Of a DNA stretch of 64,000 bases, positions 1,615-14,140 are shown piece after piece. Each line of letters starts with the position of its first letter. Within the stretch, counting starts at the first letter, position 1. This stretch comes from a virus. Lineage: Duplodnaviria > Caudoviricetes. The stretch is taken from the IMG/VR virus record IMGVR_UViG_3300044796_000401; one strand, given 5' to 3'. The notes below the pieces were generated by a model. The model did not search any database, was not told where the DNA came from, and saw only the letters and a list, made by a program, of their open reading frames with translations. The position numbers and the translations under genes were made by a program.

Positions 1615-2520
1615 GTGAAGAACGCGAAGGAACTGAAAGAACTGAACCGCGCAACCCTGCTGCTCGTGGTTGAGGCGGTGAACTCCGGGATCAACCAAGA
1701 CCCGGACAACGAGAGCGACCCGCGCACCCAGCCGGATGGGCGCGGGCTGTGCACTCCCGTGTCATTCAAGGCGAAGCTCCGCACGCTGGTGGCCGACAAG
1801 GAATTCAACCTCTGGAAGGAACTGTCCAAGAACCTTTCGTTGGCGGACAAGGAATTCGACGTGCTTGAGCGCCGGGACACGGTGCTGAAAGAAATCTTCG
1901 ATATGACGCCGGAAGCGTTCAAGAGCAAGTATTGGGATGCCCGGTTGTTCGGCAACACCGCGCTTGAAGGCAAGGACTCGGGCGGTGAGAAGGCGGAAAA
2001 GGACCGCTTCGTCCGCACCGGGGTCGTGCAGTTCGGGCTGGGCGTCAGCGTTTGCCCGGTGGACATCATCCGCCTGACGACCACTGGCCAGCGCGCCGTG
2101 CAGGCGGGCAAGAGCCGCGCCATGGCTGCGCTGGGATACAGGGTCGTCAAGCACGGGCTGTACGTGATGCCGGGGTATGTCAACCCCGCCGTAGCCTCGA
2201 AGAGCGGCTGCACCGCGACCGACGTGGAACTCATGAAGCGCGTCATTCCCTACGCCTATTCGCACACTACCTCCTATGTCCGCAGCGAAATCAACATCCT
2301 GCACGCATGGTACGTGGAGCACAAGTCGCCCCTCGGGTCGTGCCCCGACTGGAAGATCATCGAGGCCCTCACCCCGAAGCGGATCGGCGACCCGGAGACG
2401 CCGAGCCAGTCCCGCAAGGACTACGAAATCCCTTCCGCGCTGCCGGAAGAACTCCGCAAGCAGGTCAAGTCGGCCGTGGACCTGATGGAGTACATGGCAC
2501 AAGCGACCGACGCGAAGTAA
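1615..2520 (+). CDS. cas7: Cas7 (Csd2) backbone subunit, type I-C
   Basis: NQDPDNESDPRT, TPVSFKAKLR, YWDARLFG, GVVQFGLGVSV, HGLYVMPGYVNP..A.KSG motifs of Csd2/Cas7c. GTG start. Confidence 0.9.
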   Translation: MKNAKELKELNRATLLLVVEAVNSGINQDPDNESDPRTQPDGRGLCTPVSFKAKLRTLVADKEFNLWKELSKNLSLADKEFDVLERRDTVLKEIFDMTPEAFKSKYWDARLFGNTALEGKDSGGEKAEKDRFVRTGVVQFGLGVSVCPVDIIRLTTTGQRAVQAGKSRAMAALGYRVVKHGLYVMPGYVNPAVASKSGCTATDVELMKRVIPYAYSHTTSYVRSEINILHAWYVEHKSPLGSCPDWKIIEALTPKRIGDPETPSQSRKDYEIPSALPEELRKQVKSAVDLMEYMAQATDAK

Positions 2521-2576
2521 GGATGCTCGCAAACGGCGGGGCAGCACGTTTATTTGCATAGACTTGCTGCCCTGGA

Positions 2577-3308
2577 CTTGTCAGGTACTTGAAACTATCT
2601 GTGAATTGAAACATGCAGACAAGGGGCTTGGAAGCCGCGTGGAATATCTTGTCAGGTACTTGAAACTATCTGTGAATTGAAACCAAGTCACTTGCACGGG
2701 CTGCACAAACGGTTCCACCTTGTCAGGTACTTGAAACTATCTGTGAATTGAAACGTGAAAAACCTGCGCTCCCAGCTTCCGATTCCCGCTTGTCAGGTAC
2801 TTGAAACTATCTGTGAATTGAAACCAAGACACAAGGCACAGTGACCGTTCAGTCTTGCTCTTGTCAGGTACTTGAAACTATCTGTGAATTGAAACTGAGC
2901 CCCCATCGGGCGGCGTACCACGGGAAGGCCTTGTCAGGTACTTGAAACTATCTGTGAATTGAAACACGTTCTGCGCCACGTAGGATGCGGCCTTGTCGGC
3001 CTTGTCAGGTACTTGAAACTATCTGTGAATTGAAACATTTCCGTTCCGGGAATTTGCGACATCATGCCTGGCCTTGTCAGGTACTTGAAACTATCTGTGA
3101 ATTGAAACATTACCCGCAATGGGGCGGTGACCCCCGCATCGACTTGTCAGGTGCTTAAGACACCTGTGAATTGAAACATGTTATGCTGGTCTTACAACAG
3201 TTAGCCGCACTGCAAGGTGCGTGAATTGAAACAATCCCGAGGCGAATGGCAGGAAGCGGATCAAAGCGTAATGTTTGTCAGGTGCTTAAAACACCTGTGA
3301 ATTTTAGG
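2577..3308 (+). CRISPR. CRISPR array, 11 repeats / 10 spacers
   Basis: Eight identical 36-bp repeats CTTGTCAGGTACTTGAAACTATCTGTGAATTGAAAC start at 2577, 2648, 2719, 2789, 2860, 2930, 3001 and 3073, with 34-36 nt spacers. Variant repeats at 3143-3177, 3210-3232 (internal deletion) and 3274-3308. Confidence 0.97.
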
Positions 3309-3392: not shown

Positions 3393-3878
3393 ATGCCTTT
3401 TACTTCTCGTCATCTTGGCGAATTTTCTTATTGCCCCCGGCTCTTTTTTCTCGAAGAAATCGAAGGCTTCGATGCGGAGTCCTCCGACACCGAAACAGGG
3501 CATTATGTCCACCAACCCCATGAAGCCAAGGTTCGCGCTCGCCACAACGGTGGCTGTAATCAACCCCATGAAGTAAGAGTTAGATGCGGTCTTCAAAAGG
3601 CCGCAAACGGGCTTCTCGATAGAATACGTGCCTTGCCGCAAACCAAAGAGGCACAACGAAGGATGGGTCTCATCTATGGTCGCAAAAACGTCGAGAGCGG
3701 ACAGATCGCAAGTTTGAGAACACCCGAGCACCAAGCAAAAGCTGGTCGCATCGGCGGTTTTATCAGCCGCCACAACTGCTGGCATGTCAGGGGATTTTCT
3801 CGAATCGGCAAGTGGTATCCACCAAAGCCAAACCCCAAATGCCGCCTCTGTGCAGAATCCGCCAGTAAAAGTCTGTAA
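3393..3878 (+). pseudogene. cas4: Chimera: Cas4 N-terminal fragment fused to a mobile-endonuclease C-terminal tail
   Basis: HLGEFSYCPRLFFLEEIEGFDAESSDTETGHYVH is a Cas4-type N-terminus, but no nuclease core follows. The C-terminus matches tails of ORFs 30648 and 39860. Confidence 0.6.
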
Positions 3879-3894
3879 ATCAACAGTTTGGGAG

Positions 3895-3923
3895 TAGCCA
3901 AAACCCCTCGACCCCTGTATACT
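3895..3923 (+). promoter_or_regulatory. Phage promoter motif TAGCCA-17-TATACT, ATG 6 nt downstream
   Basis: TAGCCAAAACCCCTCGACCCCTGTATACT; the motif recurs about 10 times in intergenic positions. Confidence 0.7.
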
Positions 3924-3929
3924 GTAGGC

Positions 3930-4754
3930 ATGGGACGAAAACCATACATTCCGAAATCCGATCAGGACATCCGCGTCGTCAGGCTGTACAACGACGAGGT
4001 CACGATCACGTACAAAAACGGCCGTCACACCTACTCCGTTGAGGACCCGGCGAACGGCGTCAACGGTCTCGTCCTCAGCGTGACCCAAGTCCTGAACGTG
4101 CTAGACAAACCGGCCCTGGTATCGTGGGCTGTTAATTGCGGGGCGGACTATATCCGCTCCCGCTTCAAGGCGGGCGAGGAACTGTGGCTCACGCAGGAAG
4201 AGATCGACAGGATCGCCGATGGTGTCAAGTCGGCGCACCGCAAGGTCAGCAAGGCGGCTCGCGACATCGGCTCCGAGGCCCACGACTGGATCGCTTCCTG
4301 CATAGCCGCGCAGGCGGAGGGCGGGGATGCCCCCGTGCTTCCCGAGAATCCCGCCGTAAAAAATTGCTGCGTCGCCGCCAAGAACTGGCTCGCCGAAGTC
4401 GGGCTGCGCCCCATCGCAATAGAGGAAATCGTCTACAGCCGCAAGCACAAGTACCTCGGCTGCATGGACGCGGCGGGCGGGCTGGTGGAAATCCGCGGGC
4501 GGAAAGCCGTGATCGATTGGAAATCCTCCAAGGGGTTGTACAATGAGTACCGTTTCCAGCTAGCCGCCTATCGCAACGCGTACGAGGAAATGACCGGGCT
4601 GAGCGGATTCGACCGTTATGTCGTCAGGCTGGGCAAGAACGACGGGTCGTTCGAGCCGTTCTTGCTGCCGGACGAAGATTACGAAGGCGACTTGGCTGCG
4701 TTCCTCGGCTTGATCCCCGTGGCGCGGCGATTGAAGGAGTTGGGGTCGCGATGA
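3930..4754 (+). CDS. Phage PD-(D/E)XK exonuclease (Cas4-like superfamily)
   Basis: SVTQVL..LDKPALVSW, G...H, VIDWKSSK, YRFQLAAY motifs. Confidence 0.75.
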   Translation: MGRKPYIPKSDQDIRVVRLYNDEVTITYKNGRHTYSVEDPANGVNGLVLSVTQVLNVLDKPALVSWAVNCGADYIRSRFKAGEELWLTQEEIDRIADGVKSAHRKVSKAARDIGSEAHDWIASCIAAQAEGGDAPVLPENPAVKNCCVAAKNWLAEVGLRPIAIEEIVYSRKHKYLGCMDAAGGLVEIRGRKAVIDWKSSKGLYNEYRFQLAAYRNAYEEMTGLSGFDRYVVRLGKNDGSFEPFLLPDEDYEGDLAAFLGLIPVARRLKELGSR

Positions 4755-5617
4755 ACAAGGACAAGCAGAAGCGAAATCAGAATCGCCCGCAAAAACCGGG
4801 AGCACCATTCCAACCAATACTCGGGGGGGAAACATTCGGCGCTCTAACAGCCACAGGTCACAGCAAGCCCGGCGACAGGTCGGCAATTCCCCGCATTTAT
4901 CCCCAAGATGAAGTTGAGTGCGAGTGCGGCTGGGTAGGATGGATACACCACTCCCGTTTAATGGGCAAGAAGCCCCAGCAATCTTGCAGCAACACTTGCC
5001 TATTTAATTCACGCAAGAAGCCGCCCGTGAAAGGCGAGAAGTTTCATCATTTGACGGCGACGGGCAAGTGGAAAATGGAGACTACACCTAGTGGCTTCCG
5101 CTATATCGCTGCGGAGTTTGTCTGTGACTGCGGCAGACCCCCCTGCTGGAAGTCCTTCAACAATGTAAAGTTTGGTCAAGCCACGTCTTGCGACAAACGG
5201 TGCTCCTGCAACGGACTTCGCATTGGTGACCTTGCAGAGCAAAGAGACGCCTATCGTAACTACAAACGTGCCTGCCTTGTTCGAAACTTTGTCCCCCTTA
5301 CTTTTGAGGATTGGCTGTCTGTAGCAAAGCTGTCCTGCATTTACTGTGGCGCATTGCCAACACTCTACAAGGTAAACATGGGATTCAAAGGATTCGACCG
5401 GAAGCCATTTTTTCGTAATGGCATCGACCACTTTGACCCAAAGATAAAAGCCCCTGTGGGAAACTCCCTCCCGTGCTGCCTCCCCTGTAACCACGAAAAG
5501 AATGTGATGACCCCGCAAGAGTGGAAAGATCGCCTCATCCAGACCCGCGGGAAGACGAAGGCGACTAAGATTTGGCGGCGGGTGAAGGCTTTCCTGCGGA
5601 AGCAGAAGGAACAGTAG
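4751..5617 (+). CDS. HNH homing endonuclease with two N-terminal Cys-rich repeats
   Basis: GETFGALT/GEKFHHLT..CDCG repeats; CIYCG..NGIDHFDP..CCLPCNHEK. Confidence 0.7.
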   Translation: MNKDKQKRNQNRPQKPGAPFQPILGGETFGALTATGHSKPGDRSAIPRIYPQDEVECECGWVGWIHHSRLMGKKPQQSCSNTCLFNSRKKPPVKGEKFHHLTATGKWKMETTPSGFRYIAAEFVCDCGRPPCWKSFNNVKFGQATSCDKRCSCNGLRIGDLAEQRDAYRNYKRACLVRNFVPLTFEDWLSVAKLSCIYCGALPTLYKVNMGFKGFDRKPFFRNGIDHFDPKIKAPVGNSLPCCLPCNHEKNVMTPQEWKDRLIQTRGKTKATKIWRRVKAFLRKQKEQ

Positions 5618-5644
5618 CTATTTCGCTTCTGGATGTGGTACACT
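5615..5644 (+). promoter_or_regulatory. Promoter TAGCTA-18-TACACT
   Basis: Variant of the recurring motif, upstream of ORF 5660. Confidence 0.55.
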
Positions 5645-5659
5645 AGGAGTGGAGGAGTT

Positions 5660-5854
5660 ATGAGCATCAAAAGAGTTGTAGCCGTTCTGATTTTCATTCT
5701 TGTTTTAGCGGCGGGGGCTTGGGCTGGTTGGCCGTGTCCGATGCACCCGGCCTCACAGTGCAATACAGATGGTCAAGTTAAGTATCTCAACGGGCAACGG
5801 TGGGAACACTATCGCTGTGCCCCTTGTGGCGATTCTGGATGGAAACAAAACTGA
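5660..5854 (+). CDS. Small secreted Cys-rich protein (CPMHP motif)
   Basis: GGAGG RBS, hydrophobic signal peptide ending AWA, four Cys. Confidence 0.6.
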   Translation: MSIKRVVAVLIFILVLAAGAWAGWPCPMHPASQCNTDGQVKYLNGQRWEHYRCAPCGDSGWKQN

Positions 5855-5879
5855 AGAGGATCGACCTTTGGGGGGCTCT

Positions 5880-6599
5880 ATGAAACTCGCAATCGCAATG
5901 ATCCTTGGATTGATACTTTGTGCATCGGCTGCGGGACAAACAACCCCGTCGTTGGCGGATACGGCGGCATTTCTCAACACTATGGGTGTCCCCGATGGAC
6001 ATTTTGTAACCGTTGACGCCTGTACTATGAGAGTTGGACAAGTTGATGCTGACGGGTTTCCCCTTGATGGCGGTGGAATGCTGCATTTGTCAGGCAACCG
6101 TGCCCAGCTTGCTGAGTTTGATCCGGTAAAAGGCTACTTGTGGTATGCTTGGAATCCAGAACCTCTTGCGGCAGAATTCAAACTGTCAGATATTGACACC
6201 ACCCACATCGGTTCTTTCGGGGTGGTTACGGTGGACATTTTTTTGGACAAGAAACTCCCTGAACTCCCTAAAGAACCTTCGCTTGATGAAGACCCCAACT
6301 TATTCGCTACACACATCAAGGAGTACCGCGCTGCACTCAAGGTATACCATGAAGCGCACCACCAATTTAACTCTTGGGCCGTAGTAATTGACACTAAGGA
6401 TCGCGTGAAAGCCATAAAAGAAACATACGTTGACGATCACAACCCCAACCCCCAAACTCCTCAGTATTGTAACTCCAGCGGAACGCATTTCTTCTTTTCC
6501 TCCAAAGACAGGGCGGAGAGATTTGTCACAGGATTGAAGCACGCCGCCGAACTTTGCGGGGGAGGACCGAGCCTTTTCCCGCCTACCCCTGCGAAATAG
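5880..6599 (+). CDS. Secreted hypothetical protein
   Basis: Signal peptide MKLAIAMILGLILCASAAG. Confidence 0.6.
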   Translation: MKLAIAMILGLILCASAAGQTTPSLADTAAFLNTMGVPDGHFVTVDACTMRVGQVDADGFPLDGGGMLHLSGNRAQLAEFDPVKGYLWYAWNPEPLAAEFKLSDIDTTHIGSFGVVTVDIFLDKKLPELPKEPSLDEDPNLFATHIKEYRAALKVYHEAHHQFNSWAVVIDTKDRVKAIKETYVDDHNPNPQTPQYCNSSGTHFFFSSKDRAERFVTGLKHAAELCGGGPSLFPPTPAK

Positions 6600-7653: not shown

Positions 7654-7682
7654 TAGCCGAAATCCCCCGGCCCCTGTATACT
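7654..7682 (+). promoter_or_regulatory. Promoter TAGCCG-17-TATACT; probably drives the operon ending in the pentamer array
   Basis: TAGCCGAAATCCCCCGGCCCCTGTATACT. Confidence 0.7.
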
Positions 7683-7741
7683 AGGGCAGTTAGTGCGACT
7701 GGCAACCCCACCGCACCGCAGAAGATTGGCAGGGGTAAATT

Positions 7742-8587: not shown

Positions 8588-8825
8588 AACGCCCGGCAAG
8601 GTCATCCTGATCCCCAAGAACATTTGGGACACAACATTGGCGGAGAAACGCAAGCAGCAGCGCAAGGCGTTTGACAACAACAAGCCGCAAGAGCCGCTCA
8701 AGGTCCCGCCGAGGGCGGAGCCTGAGCAAAAAAAGTTTAGCAAGCCCGTGCCTTACGCAGCGCCGGATGGTCCGCAGTTTAGACAGCCGCCGCCGCGAAA
8801 ACGGTTCGGGCTGCTGAAGAAGTAA
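8574..8825 (+). CDS. Basic Pro/Lys-rich hypothetical protein
   Basis: GGAGGAAG upstream; overlaps the previous stop and fills the gap before the RAMP gene. Confidence 0.5.
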   Translation: MAFPKTPGKVILIPKNIWDTTLAEKRKQQRKAFDNNKPQEPLKVPPRAEPEQKKFSKPVPYAAPDGPQFRQPPPRKRFGLLKK

Positions 8826-8847
8826 ATCTGACACGAAAAGAGGATGT

Positions 8848-9423
8848 ATGAAATACATAGTTGAAGTAAAGGGGATGGAAGGCTCCAGCCTTCTGTTCGG
8901 CAAGCACATCGAGTCCCCGAAACGAGATGGAGAAAACGAAGGAGCCTATGAAGACCGCGTATGGCGGGAACGCCTACACGTCGATTCCGAGGGCTTCGTT
9001 GTTTTCCCGGTCGAGGGTTTCAAGCGCTCGCTTGAAACCGGAGCCAAGGGAAAGAAAACCGGAAACGGCAGGCAGACTCTCACCGACTCGTTCCTCAAGG
9101 CGGTCGTGAGCAACAATGCCTTTGCCCAGATTCTCACCCCTAAGGGCAAGCCGATCAAGGCGGATAGCGTGGAACACCTCTGCTTGTTCGTTCCCAGCAA
9201 GGGCGAACGGAACGGCCCCAAGCGGGTCGCCAAGAACTTCCCGTGCATCCCTGAGTGGAAGGCGGCATTTCCCTTGACCGTGCTTCTCGACGACCTCATC
9301 ACCATGGACGCCATCAAGCGGGTTGTTCCCGATGCTGGGCTGCTTGAGGGCATCGGCTCCATGCGTGCCGGGAACGGCAACAATAACGGACGATACGAAC
9401 TCGTTTCCATCCGCAAGGCGTAA
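8848..9423 (+). CDS. Solo RAMP/Cas7-like RNA-binding protein (Vipr-like effector)
   Basis: VVFPVEGFKRSL resembles the Cas7/Csm3 'IP..SLKG' motif. C-terminal G-rich loop AGLLEGIGSMRAGNGNNNGRY. 191 aa; abuts the repeat array. Confidence 0.75.
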   Translation: MKYIVEVKGMEGSSLLFGKHIESPKRDGENEGAYEDRVWRERLHVDSEGFVVFPVEGFKRSLETGAKGKKTGNGRQTLTDSFLKAVVSNNAFAQILTPKGKPIKADSVEHLCLFVPSKGERNGPKRVAKNFPCIPEWKAAFPLTVLLDDLITMDAIKRVVPDAGLLEGIGSMRAGNGNNNGRYELVSIRKA

Positions 9424-9430
9424 ATCTGAC

Positions 9431-10236
9431 GAGACCAGAAGCAGGGACTTTCGAGCCTCTGCTCCTGCTCTCAAGGCAGGAATCCGATCCGATCTGATGG
9501 GATACGACATGACAAGATGCGACTGGAACCGATATGATGCGACATGCTGAGATTAGAGGCAAGGGGCTTCGGCCCTTTGCTCCTGCTCTCAAAGGCAGGA
9601 CTTAGACCTGACCCGATAAAATACGATGTGATATGACCCGGTGGGACGTGACAAGACCCGACACGTTGAGATTCGAGGCAAGGGGCTTCGGCCTTTTGCT
9701 CCTGCTCTCAAGGCAGGCTGTGATTAGATAAGATATGATGGGACGTGACGGGACGTAACTTGACGCGCCAAGCTGAGATTCGAAGCAAGGGGCTTCGGCC
9801 CTTTGCTCCTGCTCTCAAGGCAGGCTGAGATAAGATGCGACGTAACAGGGTGTGATGTGACGTGATTTGTTAAGACGTGGCGGGACATGGCGAGACCAGA
9901 GGCAAGGGGCTTCGGCCCTTTGCTCCTGCTCTCAAAGCAGGAATCGTTAAGATAAGAATAGATGCGGCGCGATGCGATTCGATTGGATTGGAAGGGATTG
10001 GTTCTGATAGGTTGAGTTCAGAAGCAAGGGGCTTCGGCTCTTTGCTCCTGCTCTCAAAGGCAGGATGCGATTTGATTTGATTCGATTGGATTGGACAGGA
10101 TTGGACACGATGGGACCAGACATGTTGAGACCTGAAGCAAGGGCTTTCGAGCCTTTGCTCCTGCTCTCACGGATGGGATGCGATGTGATGGGACATGACG
10201 TGATGGGACTGGATAAGACGCGCTGAGACGAGACAC
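9431..10236 (+). ncRNA. Array of 7 structured ~50-nt repeats alternating with GAY-NN pentamer tracts (putative gapped guide RNAs)
   Basis: Repeat consensus TGAGA-N3/4-GARGCAAGGGGCTTCGGCCCTTTGCTCCTGCTCTCAA(A)GGCAGG at about 9431, 9548, 9666, 9774, 9892, 10012 and 10125. Intervening tracts parse as 5-mers, e.g. GATCC GATCT GATGG GATAC GACAT GACAA GATGC GACTG. Confidence 0.85.
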
Positions 10237-10243
10237 GAAAAAG

Positions 10244-10267
10244 GAGCCCAGAAATGGGCTCTTTTTT
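10244..10267 (+). terminator. Rho-independent terminator ending the array
   Basis: GAGCCCA-GAAA-TGGGCTC followed by TTTTTT. Confidence 0.85.
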
Positions 10268-10583
10268 GTTTTCCCAGTATTGTATCCCGAAGCGGAGACG
10301 CACAACGACGGATGCAGTGCGTGTCGATCCTCCATCGCCGGGAAGGAAAGATGATAAGCCTGAGATTCAAGTACTTGTTCCTCATCTGCCCCAACGGGTG
10401 CTACGCACGGGAGTTGCGCGCCATCGGCGGTAGGGCGGCATGCGCCAAATGCGGTTATTGGCTGCTCGTGCTCACGATTGACGACCTGCGGAAGAACGGT
10501 CCCCGGAAGGGGAAGATATGGACGAAGGTGAATCCGCTGTGGACCGGGGGAAAGTGCGAATAGCGTTTGCGGGGGACAGGCGC

Positions 10584-10924: not shown

Positions 10925-10953
10925 TAGTTAGAATCGCCCGGCCCCTGTATACT
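10925..10953 (+). promoter_or_regulatory. Promoter TAGTTA-17-TATACT
   Basis: TAGTTAGAATCGCCCGGCCCCTGTATACT. Confidence 0.65.
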
Positions 10954-11000
10954 ATTGTGGAAGTCAACCCACTTTCCCTTCACGGGTACGGAGGCCGTAA

Positions 11001-13669: not shown

Positions 13670-14140
13670 AATCCCCCAGTTCGGGGGCACAAGGAGAAGC
13701 AAATGATCCATCTCGGAACCGACAACGAATCGCAGGACGCCAAGAACTACCCGGTGCTCCATCGCCGGACGGACCACATCGTCACGCTCTCGAACATCGA
13801 GGCGGACGTGAGGAAGAACAGGAACAGCTACGGCGCGGCCGTGGTGCAGACGGTAAGCAGGCGGATGGCGCGGACCGTCTCCGTCATCCGGCGCGACCTG
13901 AATTCCACCAAACGCCAAGAACGCCGCCGCAACTGAGGACCCATGAAAACCGCGCCGGAAAAAGCCATGCTGCGAATCATCTGGCTCATGCTGTGTTCCT
14001 TGGCGCTGGTCTGGGCGTGCGACCGCGCTGCCTGGTTCATCTTCTGGGAACCAGCCCTCCCAGTCTTGCTCATGGCGTATCTCCTGCTGCTCTACGCCGG
14101 GTTCAAGCTGATAAACAAACTCCATTACGGTGGGTGCTAA

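What the first reader, a model, noticed from the sequence alone, without database searches (positions are those of the whole stretch)
9548..9599. Array repeat folds into a cUUCGg hairpin plus a probable pseudoknot
Seen: GCAAGGGGC-TTCG-GCCCTTTGC forms a 9-bp stem with the stable C(UUCG)G loop. A second hairpin CCTGC-TCTCAA(A)G-GCAGG has a loop (TCTCA) complementary to the (T)TGAGA that opens each repeat. Copies 1 and 7 alter hairpin 1 but can still pair. Inference: this is a processing or capping handle that delimits individual guide RNAs.
Basis: partly seen in the sequence, partly recalled or inferred. Interest (0 to 1): 0.6.

Follow-up and report, generated by a model that had tools for sequence, protein, structure and literature searches.

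The report
Structured tail of phage VIPR guides

Summary
Window 9430-10171 carries seven copies of a ~52-nt block. Each has a 9-bp hairpin with a UUCG loop, which is well supported: three pairs show compensatory changes and G.U pairs fit only the + strand. A second 5-bp hairpin (CCUGC/GCAGG) is exact in copies 1-6 and lost in copy 7. UGAGA:UCUCA complementarity of 4-6 bp is present in all seven copies.

The blocks alternate with tracts of 9-13 GAY-NN pentamers in strict 5-nt phase. The 191-aa gene just upstream (8848-9423) is a Vipr protein. Its family profile hits the solved SUSP1 Vipr structure (E 5.9e-12), and its model has a Cas7/Csm3 RAMP fold.

The locus is therefore a VIPR system (bioRxiv 10.64898/2026.04.26.720920, .720927) with seven vrRNAs. 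All seven tracts are in register with the block that follows them, not the one before. This makes the block the 3' tail, as in phage SUSP1, where a pseudoknot tail caps the filament.

The pseudoknot itself remains plausible but unproven. It shows no covariation, and RNAfold often prefers a nested alternative.

This tail sequence was found nowhere else. Non-canonical GAC/NN repeats are already in print. This scan has found VIPR loci before on other DNA.

The parts
8848..9423 (+). vipr gene (191 aa, P0001): a small single-RRM RAMP protein expected to polymerise on the pentamer tracts, one protomer per GAYNN unit
   Evidence: The family profile hits PDB 36pp 'SUSP1 Vipr protein' at E 5.9e-12. The AF2 model has pLDDT 93 and its top Foldseek hits are Csm3/Cas7. 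HMMER finds 669 representatives at E<=1e-3. All 10 viral loci with homologues carry period-5 tracts beside the gene.
9430..9480 (+). Tail copy 1, an orphan: it starts 7 nt after the vipr stop codon and has no pentamer tract before it
   Evidence: Only about three GAY-like units precede it, read directly.
9486..9545 (+). Guide tract 1 (12 GAY-NN units)
9548..9599 (+). Tail copy 2 (the reported element): UGAGA 9548-9552, hairpin 1 at 9559-9580 (UUCG loop), hairpin 2 at 9582-9599 with UCUCA at 9587-9591
9605..9664 (+). Guide tract 2 (12 units)
9667..9717 (+). Tail copy 3 (G.U pair in hairpin 1)
9722..9766 (+). Guide tract 3 (9 units)
9774..9824 (+). Tail copy 4; the two-hairpin fold is the RNAfold optimum both with and without flanks
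9829..9888 (+). Guide tract 4 (12 units, several with degenerate triplets)
9891..9941 (+). Tail copy 5
9946..10010 (+). Guide tract 5 (13 units)
10013..10064 (+). Tail copy 6 (G.U pair in hairpin 1)
10064..10123 (+). Guide tract 6 (12 units)
10126..10171 (+). Tail copy 7: hairpin 1 carries two compensatory pair changes, UCUCA is kept, and the 3' arm of hairpin 2 is lost
10172..10221 (+). Guide tract 7 (10 units)
10222..10268 (+). End of the array: GCUGAGAC opens like a tail, but a terminator hairpin (GGAGCCC-AGAAA-UGGGCUC plus a U run) takes the place of hairpins 1 and 2
   Evidence: (z -4.0)

Best explanation
The block is the conserved 3' tail of the guide RNAs (vrRNAs) of a phage VIPR system.

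The vipr gene and the array are most likely transcribed together on the + strand, up to the terminator at 10243-10268. Each vrRNA is one GAY-NN tract of 9-13 units followed by one 52-nt tail, giving units of 107-122 nt.

By homology with SUSP1 Vipr, protomers bind one per pentamer. They sequester the GAY triplet and present the NN dinucleotides, which read double-stranded DNA with one skipped base between pairs.

The tail stops and caps the filament at its 3' end and marks the boundary to the next guide. Its core is a very stable cUUCGg hairpin. This is flanked by a 5' UGAGA, which overlaps the last degenerate pentamers, and by a second hairpin whose loop carries UCUCA. Together these can form an H-type pseudoknot with hairpin 1 sitting in loop 1.

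Shown here: the repeat anatomy, hairpin 1, the register with the upstream tract, and Vipr homology and fold.

Inferred: filament capping, the pseudoknot, the positions of the RNA ends, and DNA silencing.

The confidence of 0.8 is for the tail-of-a-VIPR-guide reading; the pseudoknot alone I put at about 0.5.
For: Vipr identity:
- The profile hits PDB 36pp 'SUSP1 Vipr' at E 5.9e-12.
- The model is confident (pLDDT 93) and has a Csm3/Cas7-like fold.
- R179 and K82 of SUSP1 are conserved in the alignment.

Pentamer tracts:
- GAY spacings are 5 nt (51 times) and 10 nt (15 times).
- Column composition is G 97%, A 90%, Y 96%.
- All 10 viral loci with Vipr homologues have period-5 tracts next to the gene on its sense strand.

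Tail belongs to the upstream tract:
- All 7 tracts are in 5-nt register with the following block. The offset to the preceding block varies: 0, 1, 4, 4, 4, 0, 0.
- In GAC-type loci L036 and L040 the arrays start with a tract right after vipr and end in a terminator.

Hairpin 1 shows compensatory changes and strand-specific G.U pairs.

Published precedent: vrRNAs are a tract plus an invariable 3' tail with a pseudoknot that caps the RNA in cryo-EM (10.64898/2026.04.26.720920 section 6; 10.64898/2026.04.26.720927 section 6).

Read directly from the SUSP1 sequence, two of its tails pair GUAG/CUAC and AGUCUCA/UGAGACU. That uses the same UCUCA/UGAGA letters in a hairpin loop.
Against: - No RNA data exist for this locus.
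- Hairpin 2 and the UGAGA:UCUCA helix show no covariation. Their only deviations are mismatches.
- RNAfold's optimum is a nested fold (UGAGA:UCUCA closing hairpin 1, without hairpin 2) in most copies: 6 of 7 when folded with flanks and 4 of 7 without. It differs from the two-hairpin fold by only 0.4-4 kcal/mol.
- Loop 3 of the pseudoknot would be only 2-3 nt, which is tight.
- The array begins with a tail that has no tract and ends with a tract that has no canonical tail. Read naively, this fits a 5' handle.
- Copy 7 lacks hairpin 2.
- No vap partner gene was recognised.
- No convincing target was found.
- This tail was found in no other sequence, so no outside covariation test was possible.
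Confidence: 0.8

Rival explanations
1. The same UGAGA:UCUCA pairing forms, but as a nested, extended hairpin (UGAGA:UCUCA, a 3-bp CAG:CUG, then hairpin 1). It does not form a pseudoknot, and hairpin 2 does not form or forms only as an alternative state.
For: RNAfold's minimum-energy and centroid structures are this fold in 6 of 7 copies when folded with flanks and in 4 of 7 without. It is 0.4-4 kcal/mol better than hairpin 1 plus hairpin 2 where both can form. Copy 7, which lacks hairpin 2, keeps UGAGA and UCUCA.
Against: The inner CAG:CUG helix cannot form in copies 3, 4 and 7 (UCG, UCG, CUG) with no compensation, read from the alignment. GCAGG is kept letter-perfect in six copies although this fold leaves it unpaired. 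Published VIPR tails of the SUSP1 clade are pseudoknots.
Confidence: 0.3
2. The block is a 5' handle or leader of the guide that follows it (CRISPR-like repeat then spacer), not a 3' tail.
For: There are seven blocks and seven tracts, with a block first, directly after the vipr stop. The last tract runs into a terminator without a block.
Against: The 5-nt register is locked to the downstream block in 7 of 7 tracts and is not locked to the upstream block. The pentamer pattern runs on into the first 15 nt of the block (GYUGA, GAYYN, GARGC). After tract 7 the tail opening GCUGAGAC is present. SUSP1 and the GAC-type loci L036 and L040 have the tract first and the tail after it.
Confidence: 0.1
3. 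The block is a self-cleaving ribozyme or a dedicated nuclease site that cuts the array, as in the published hammerhead-interspersed VIPR arrays. In this reading the structure serves cleavage, not capping.
For: Hammerhead-interspersed vrRNA arrays exist (10.64898/2026.04.26.720920 section 9). The compact fold with a possible pseudoknot is about the size of small ribozymes.
Against: No Rfam family matches at gathering score in the window. No ribozyme appears even at E up to 10 in 9380-10300. The sequence CUGAGAU does not fit the hammerhead core CUGANGA, and C is replaced by U in three copies (direct reading).
Confidence: 0.05

Closest known systems
Type II VIPR system of Escherichia phage SUSP1: Vipr, Vap1 and four vrRNAs (bioRxiv 10.64898/2026.04.26.720920; structures in 10.64898/2026.04.26.720927; PDB 36pp)
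   Same: - A small single-RRM RAMP protein homologous at profile level.
- Guide RNAs built from about 9-16 pentamers, each a fixed triplet plus a variable NN.
- A conserved structured 3' tail directly after the last, degenerate pentamers.
- A tail that can form an H-type pseudoknot using a UCUCA-containing hairpin loop and a UGAGA strand.
- Phage-encoded, with an array of about 100-nt units downstream of vipr.
   Different: - The fixed triplet is GAY, not GGY. GGY>GAY was among the motif substitutions tested in SUSP1; perturbing the motifs abolished silencing (fig. S12 legend).
- The tail is 52 nt, not about 40.
- The tail has an extra 9-bp cUUCGg hairpin inserted in loop 1.
- The UGAGA arm lies 5' of the loop-bearing hairpin, not 3'.
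- There are seven vrRNAs in one array.
- An orphan tail sits on the vipr message.
- No vap1 homologue was found.
- Protein identity is too low for pairwise detection.
Non-canonical VIPR arrays with GAC/NN, CAC/NN or WGT/NN repeats (bioRxiv 10.64898/2026.10.21.760802, section 2.3)
   Same: Period-5 arrays with a fixed triplet other than GGY next to a Vipr-like fold. A GAYx8 pattern finds at least 120 stretches in IMG/VR, and 20 of the 120 fetched have a Vipr homologue in the flanks.
   Different: That paper describes motifs and proteins, not tails. The GAC-type loci inspected here (L008, L036, L040) have unrelated short tails and a vap-like gene between two arrays.
CRISPR crRNA repeat handles in type I/III systems (Cas6-processed repeat hairpin; Cas7 backbone)
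   Same: A conserved structured element separates variable guides. A RAMP backbone polymerises on the guide. The element marks the end of the filament.
   Different: - The guide is a gapped 5-nt code, not a contiguous spacer.
- No Cas6, Cas5 or large subunit is present.
- There is no adaptation module.
- The tail is not palindromic-repeat-like.
- A genuine type I-C array with its own 36-nt repeat lies at 2570-3300 in the same window and is unrelated.

Membership tests
VIPR system (Vipr protein + vrRNA) | Vipr protein: a small RAMP with an RRM core, G-loop and thumb, homologous to described Vipr proteins | tested here: met
   The profile of 86 family members hits PDB 36pp 'SUSP1 Vipr' at E 5.9e-12. 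The AF2 model has pLDDT 93 and its top Foldseek hits are Csm3/Cas7 at probability 1.0. The G-loop GIGSMRAGNG...GRY aligns to the SUSP1 G-loop with R179 conserved.
VIPR system (Vipr protein + vrRNA) | vrRNA tract: about 9-16 tandem pentamers with a fixed triplet and a hypervariable NN, beside vipr on its sense strand | tested here: met
   There are seven tracts of 9-13 canonical units. Column composition is G 97%, A 90%, Y 96% with a variable NN. The triplet is GAY rather than the canonical GGY. GAC/NN variants are reported in 10.64898/2026.10.21.760802.
VIPR system (Vipr protein + vrRNA) | An invariable structured 3' tail after each tract | tested here: met
   A 52-nt block is conserved at 84% mean column identity. 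It is in register with the upstream tract in 7 of 7 cases. Hairpin 1 shows covariation.
VIPR system (Vipr protein + vrRNA) | A vipr-accessory (vap) gene in the locus (typical, not universal) | tested here: not met
   No window ORF between 3300 and 13500 other than vipr matches any ORF of loci L001-L013 by BLASTP at E 1e-3. The neighbouring ORFs have no Pfam or NCBIfam hit. A non-homologous accessory gene is not excluded.
VIPR system (Vipr protein + vrRNA) | vrRNAs are expressed, bind Vipr and silence DNA that matches the NN code under the 1-nt skip rule | not testable with these tools
   This needs RNA-seq, pull-down and reporter assays. In silico there is no self-target in the window. Three IMG/VR scans gave 0, 0 and 1 exact hits, and the one hit is probably chance.
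SUSP1-clade pseudoknot tail | Sequence or covariance-model similarity to the SUSP1 vrRNA tail | tested here: not met
   The covariance model of the window's tails finds nothing at the SUSP1 VIPR locus (27490-29520 of L014). Its only L014 hit is a weak one inside a coding region at 13832-13886. Only the UCUCA/UGAGA letters are shared.
SUSP1-clade pseudoknot tail | H-type pseudoknot topology | tested here: inconclusive
   The complementarity exists in all 7 copies. There is no covariation, a nested alternative has similar energy, and loop 3 would be only 2-3 nt.
Self-cleaving ribozyme spacer (hammerhead-interspersed VIPR arrays) | Match to a ribozyme family model | tested here: not met
   Rfam gathering search of the whole window gave 0 matches. 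A permissive search of 9380-10300 returned only chance-level miRNA and sRNA hits.

The most novel reading that the evidence does not exclude
This tail is a distinct architectural class of VIPR cap: an H-type pseudoknot of reversed strand order relative to SUSP1, with a cUUCGg hairpin inserted in loop 1. It would be used by a GAY-reading Vipr whose G-loop (G-S-M-R) has lost the Arg/Asp found at SUSP1 position 177. In addition, the orphan copy on the 3' end of the vipr message would let Vipr nucleate on, or protect, its own mRNA, giving autoregulation of a guide-RNA system.
Probability: 0.2. Interest if true: 0.5.

Novelty: new member of a known kind. Interest (0 to 1): 0.33.

Why it matters
VIPR is a months-old discovery, and only the SUSP1 and P. 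fulva clade has been studied in depth. This locus adds four things:

- a GAY-reading Vipr;
- a new tail design, with a UUCG hairpin plus a possible pseudoknot that reuses the UCUCA/UGAGA pairing;
- a seven-guide array;
- co-residence with a complete type I-C CRISPR-Cas locus only 6 kb away in the same large phage.

Comparing tails across clades could show what a Vipr filament cap really needs. The GAY/GGY pair of systems could reveal how triplet specificity is set, which is useful if orthogonal VIPR tools are wanted. It does not change the picture of what VIPR is.

Tried and rejected
**First working idea.** I first thought of a TRAP-like ring protein or CsrA-type sponge RNA, because of the GAY triplets at period 5 and the many GGA motifs. 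I dropped this once the upstream protein proved to be a Vipr RAMP.

**Known RNA families.** The Rfam gathering search of the window and the permissive search of the array found nothing relevant and no ribozyme.

**Tail relatives.**
- Two IMG/VR pattern scans gave 0 hits: a 30-mer, and a 25-nt pattern restricted to invariant letters.
- blastn-short against the 120 GAY-type loci gave nothing.
- Covariance model R1 over the window plus 32 loci found only the seven copies.

**Closest protein relatives.** No whole genome is held for this window. tblastn of P0001 against the GenBank phage collection gave no match.

**Structure.** The first structure job, with a 3-sequence alignment, was poor (pLDDT 57). 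The 86-sequence alignment fixed it.

**Targets.** There is no self-target in the window above shuffled guides. Guides 1 and 2 have no exact 10-unit match in IMG/VR. Guide 7 has one exact match, judged to be chance (see the full report).

**G-loop residue 178.** The idea that the residue equivalent to SUSP1 W178 switches from aromatic to aliphatic in GA-type systems held for 2 loci. It failed when 19 more were added.

**Alignment caveat.** The MAFFT alignment A3 misplaces the 3' arm of hairpin 2 in copies with a longer loop. The helix-3 numbers are therefore not usable, and I counted hairpin 2 by string search instead.

Full report
**What is in the sequence.** Between 9430 and 10268 the + strand carries seven copies of a ~52-nt conserved block. 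The blocks start at 9431, 9549, 9668, 9775, 9892, 10014 and 10127, with spacing of 107-122 nt. They alternate with 55-70-nt stretches made of GAY-NN pentamers.

Successive GAY triplets lie 5 nt apart 51 times, 10 nt apart 15 times and 15 nt apart twice. Pooled column composition is G 97%, A 90%, T/C 96%, followed by two variable positions. No other stretch of the 64-kb window has such a period-5 signal. The array ends in a strong + strand terminator hairpin with a U run at 10243-10268.

**The reported structure.**
- *Hairpin 1* (9559-9580 in copy 2) is a 9-bp stem with a UUCG loop, and it folds in every copy. Over the seven copies 98% of cells pair and three pairs carry changes on both sides. 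Copy 1 turns A-U into G-C. Copies 1 and 7 turn G-C into C-G and the loop-closing C-G into U-A. Copies 3 and 6 each have a G.U pair. G.U pairs would be A.C mismatches on the other strand, so this is an RNA structure on the + strand.
- *Hairpin 2* (CCUGC / GCAGG) is exact in copies 1-6 with loops UCUCAAG, UCUCAAAG or UCUCAAA. Its 3' arm is absent from copy 7. Because it never varies, covariation says nothing about it.
- *UGAGA:UCUCA.* The UGAGA that opens each block is complementary to UCUCA in the loop of hairpin 2. The match is 5 bp in four copies (6 bp as UUGAGA:UCUCAA in copies 3 and 7), 5 bp in a shifted register in copy 6, and 4 bp in copies 1 and 5. Such a match arises by chance about 2.7% of the time in one sequence.
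- *Competing fold.* RNAfold, which cannot predict pseudoknots, uses the same UGAGA:UCUCA pairing as the closing helix of a nested extended hairpin. This is its optimum in 6 of 7 copies when folded with flanks and in 4 of 7 without. The fold excludes hairpin 2 and is 0.4-4 kcal/mol better than the two-hairpin fold. Its inner 3-bp helix cannot form in copies 3, 4 and 7.

Hairpin 1 is solid, hairpin 2 is likely, and the pseudoknot is plausible but not demonstrated.

**What the locus is.** The 191-aa ORF at 8848-9423 has no Pfam or NCBIfam match and only a weak PHROG hit of unknown function. An exhaustive HMMER search found 669 representative relatives of ~190 aa. A profile of 86 of them hits one solved structure, PDB 36pp, 'SUSP1 Vipr protein', at E 5.9e-12. 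With that alignment AlphaFold2 gives a confident model (pLDDT 93.2). Its best structural matches are Csm3/Cas7 backbone subunits of type III and type VII CRISPR complexes.

Ten IMG/VR loci encode 31-37% identical homologues. All of them have period-5 tracts flanking the gene on its sense strand. Each has its own fixed triplet: GAC in L008, GGC/GGY in L001 and L010, G-K-T in L004, and A-G-T in L005. Each also has its own conserved linker.

The literature search then identified the system. VIPR (Viral Interference Programmable Repeat) systems consist of a Vipr RAMP protein and vrRNAs made of 9-16 pentamers (GGY/NN) followed by an invariable structured 3' tail. The NN dinucleotides read double-stranded DNA with one skipped base (10.64898/2026.04.26.720920). 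One Vipr protomer binds per repeat in a helical filament, and a terminal pseudoknot caps the 3' end (10.64898/2026.04.26.720927).

**Tail or handle?** Each of the seven tracts is in 5-nt register with the block that follows it. The GAY phase always equals the downstream block start plus 2. The offset to the preceding block varies: 0, 1, 4, 4, 4, 0, 0. The pentamer pattern in fact continues into the first 15 nt of the block as GYUGA, GAYYN and GARGC before hairpin 1 begins.

In two GAC-type loci whose Vipr shares the window's G-S-M-R G-loop (L036, L040), the arrays start with a tract right after the vipr stop. Every tract there is followed by a short conserved tail, and the last tract runs into a terminator. 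SUSP1 shows the same order. The block is thus the 3' tail of the upstream guide.

Two oddities follow. Copy 1 (9430-9480) is an orphan tail that begins 7 nt after the vipr stop codon with no tract before it. Guide 7 ends with the tail opening GCUGAGAC followed by the terminator hairpin instead of hairpins 1 and 2.

**Comparison with the SUSP1 tail.** I fetched the SUSP1 locus. Read directly, two of its tails pair GUAG with CUAC. They also pair a loop segment AGUCUCA with a downstream UGAGACU, across an A-rich loop 3. The other two pair a segment of the last pentamers (GUGG or AAGG) with CCAC or CCUU in the loop of a GGUAG/CUACC or GGCAG/CUGCC hairpin. This assignment of pairs is my own reading; the paper's figure is not held.

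The window's tail has the same logic. A strand that overlaps the last degenerate pentamers pairs with the loop of a hairpin, and it even uses the same UCUCA/UGAGA letters. It differs in having a 22-nt cUUCGg hairpin inserted in loop 1 and only 2-3 nt (AG, AAG, AA) in loop 3, which is tight for crossing a 4-5-bp helix.

There is no sequence-level relationship. A covariance model of the seven copies finds nothing at the SUSP1 VIPR locus or in 31 other loci. The tail was also absent from IMG/VR in two pattern scans and from 120 GAY-type loci by blastn.

**How unusual is GAY?** GGY>GAY was among the motif substitutions tested in SUSP1, and perturbing the GGY motifs abolished silencing (fig. S12 legend). 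This Vipr must therefore read a different triplet. Non-canonical motifs including GAC/NN are already reported (10.64898/2026.10.21.760802). GAY-type VIPR is thus widespread and not new.

**Targets.** Under the 1-nt skip rule no guide matches the window itself better than shuffled guides do. This agrees with the published lack of self-targets. Exact 10-unit patterns for guides 1 and 2 have no IMG/VR match.

Guide 7 has one 20/20 match, in a 540-aa ORF of a 5.4-kb viral contig (L135 3343-3371, minus strand). I regard this as probably chance, for four reasons:
- the guide is G-rich;
- the match does not extend into flanking units;
- no other guide converges on that contig;
- the skipped bases fall on codon position 1 of the real ORF, not on the wobble position.

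**Context.** The same window holds the end of a type I-C cas operon (cas7 at 1615-2520) and a canonical CRISPR array with an unrelated 36-nt repeat (2570-3300). Phage-type exonuclease and HNH genes lie between them and the VIPR locus. No vap homologue was recognised.

**Limits on tools.** The contigs of the two closest relatives (P0005, P0006), which might carry the same tail, could therefore not be examined.

**Verdict.** The system, however, was published in 2026, and this scan has met it repeatedly on other DNA. This locus is a new member of a known kind. It has a distinctive tail whose pseudoknot still needs outside covariation or probing.

Noticed in passing
window 9430-9480: The first tail copy is an orphan. 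It starts 7 nt after the vipr stop codon and has no pentamer tract before it, so the vipr message itself would end in a vrRNA tail. It may be a processing or stabilising element, or a site where Vipr acts on its own mRNA.
   Followed up: partly
window 10222-10268: The last guide has no canonical tail. The opening GCUGAGAC is kept, but a terminator hairpin replaces hairpins 1 and 2. GAC-type loci L036 and L040 end their arrays the same way.
   Followed up: partly
window 8817-8841 and 9415-9439: The motif GTAAATCTGAC spans the stop codon of both the ORF before vipr and vipr itself (repeat family D4). It could be a junction left by cassette duplication or a shared processing signal.
   Followed up: no
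window ~3903-3925, 7661-7683, 10932-10954: A motif CCCCTGTATACT(A/G) recurs in intergenic positions ahead of + strand genes. It may be a phage-specific promoter with a TATACT -10 element.
   Followed up: no
L135 3343-3371 (-): [quoted passage not shown]
   Followed up: partly
L036 (reverse strand) 3457-4514; L040 (reverse strand) 4784-6037: These GAC/NN VIPR loci have a Vipr with the same G-S-M-R G-loop as the window's protein. Their layout is vipr, array, a ~160-aa gene, a second array, then a terminator. They carry a different short tail (GACUUUUGGUGGCAUGCGGAAUAYC).
   Followed up: partly
Vipr alignment, SUSP1 positions 177-178 (P0001 S171, M172): In 16 of 18 GA-type loci the residue aligned to SUSP1 D177 is not Arg or Asp (S, A, F, V, Y or T). 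In all 13 loci whose triplet has G or T at position 2 it is Arg or Asp. The loci are related and the motif calls were automatic, so this is only a lead on how the second base is read.
   Followed up: partly
window 1615-3300: A type I-C cas7 gene and a CRISPR array with a 36-nt repeat lie about 6 kb upstream of the VIPR locus. One phage therefore carries both a CRISPR-Cas system and a VIPR system.
   Followed up: partly
L012 / L013 (metagenome contigs WNFL01303460.1, WNFM01334002.1): A Vipr homologue sits next to tracts whose fixed triplet is C-A-C. This matches the CAC/NN class mentioned in 10.64898/2026.10.21.760802.
   Followed up: no
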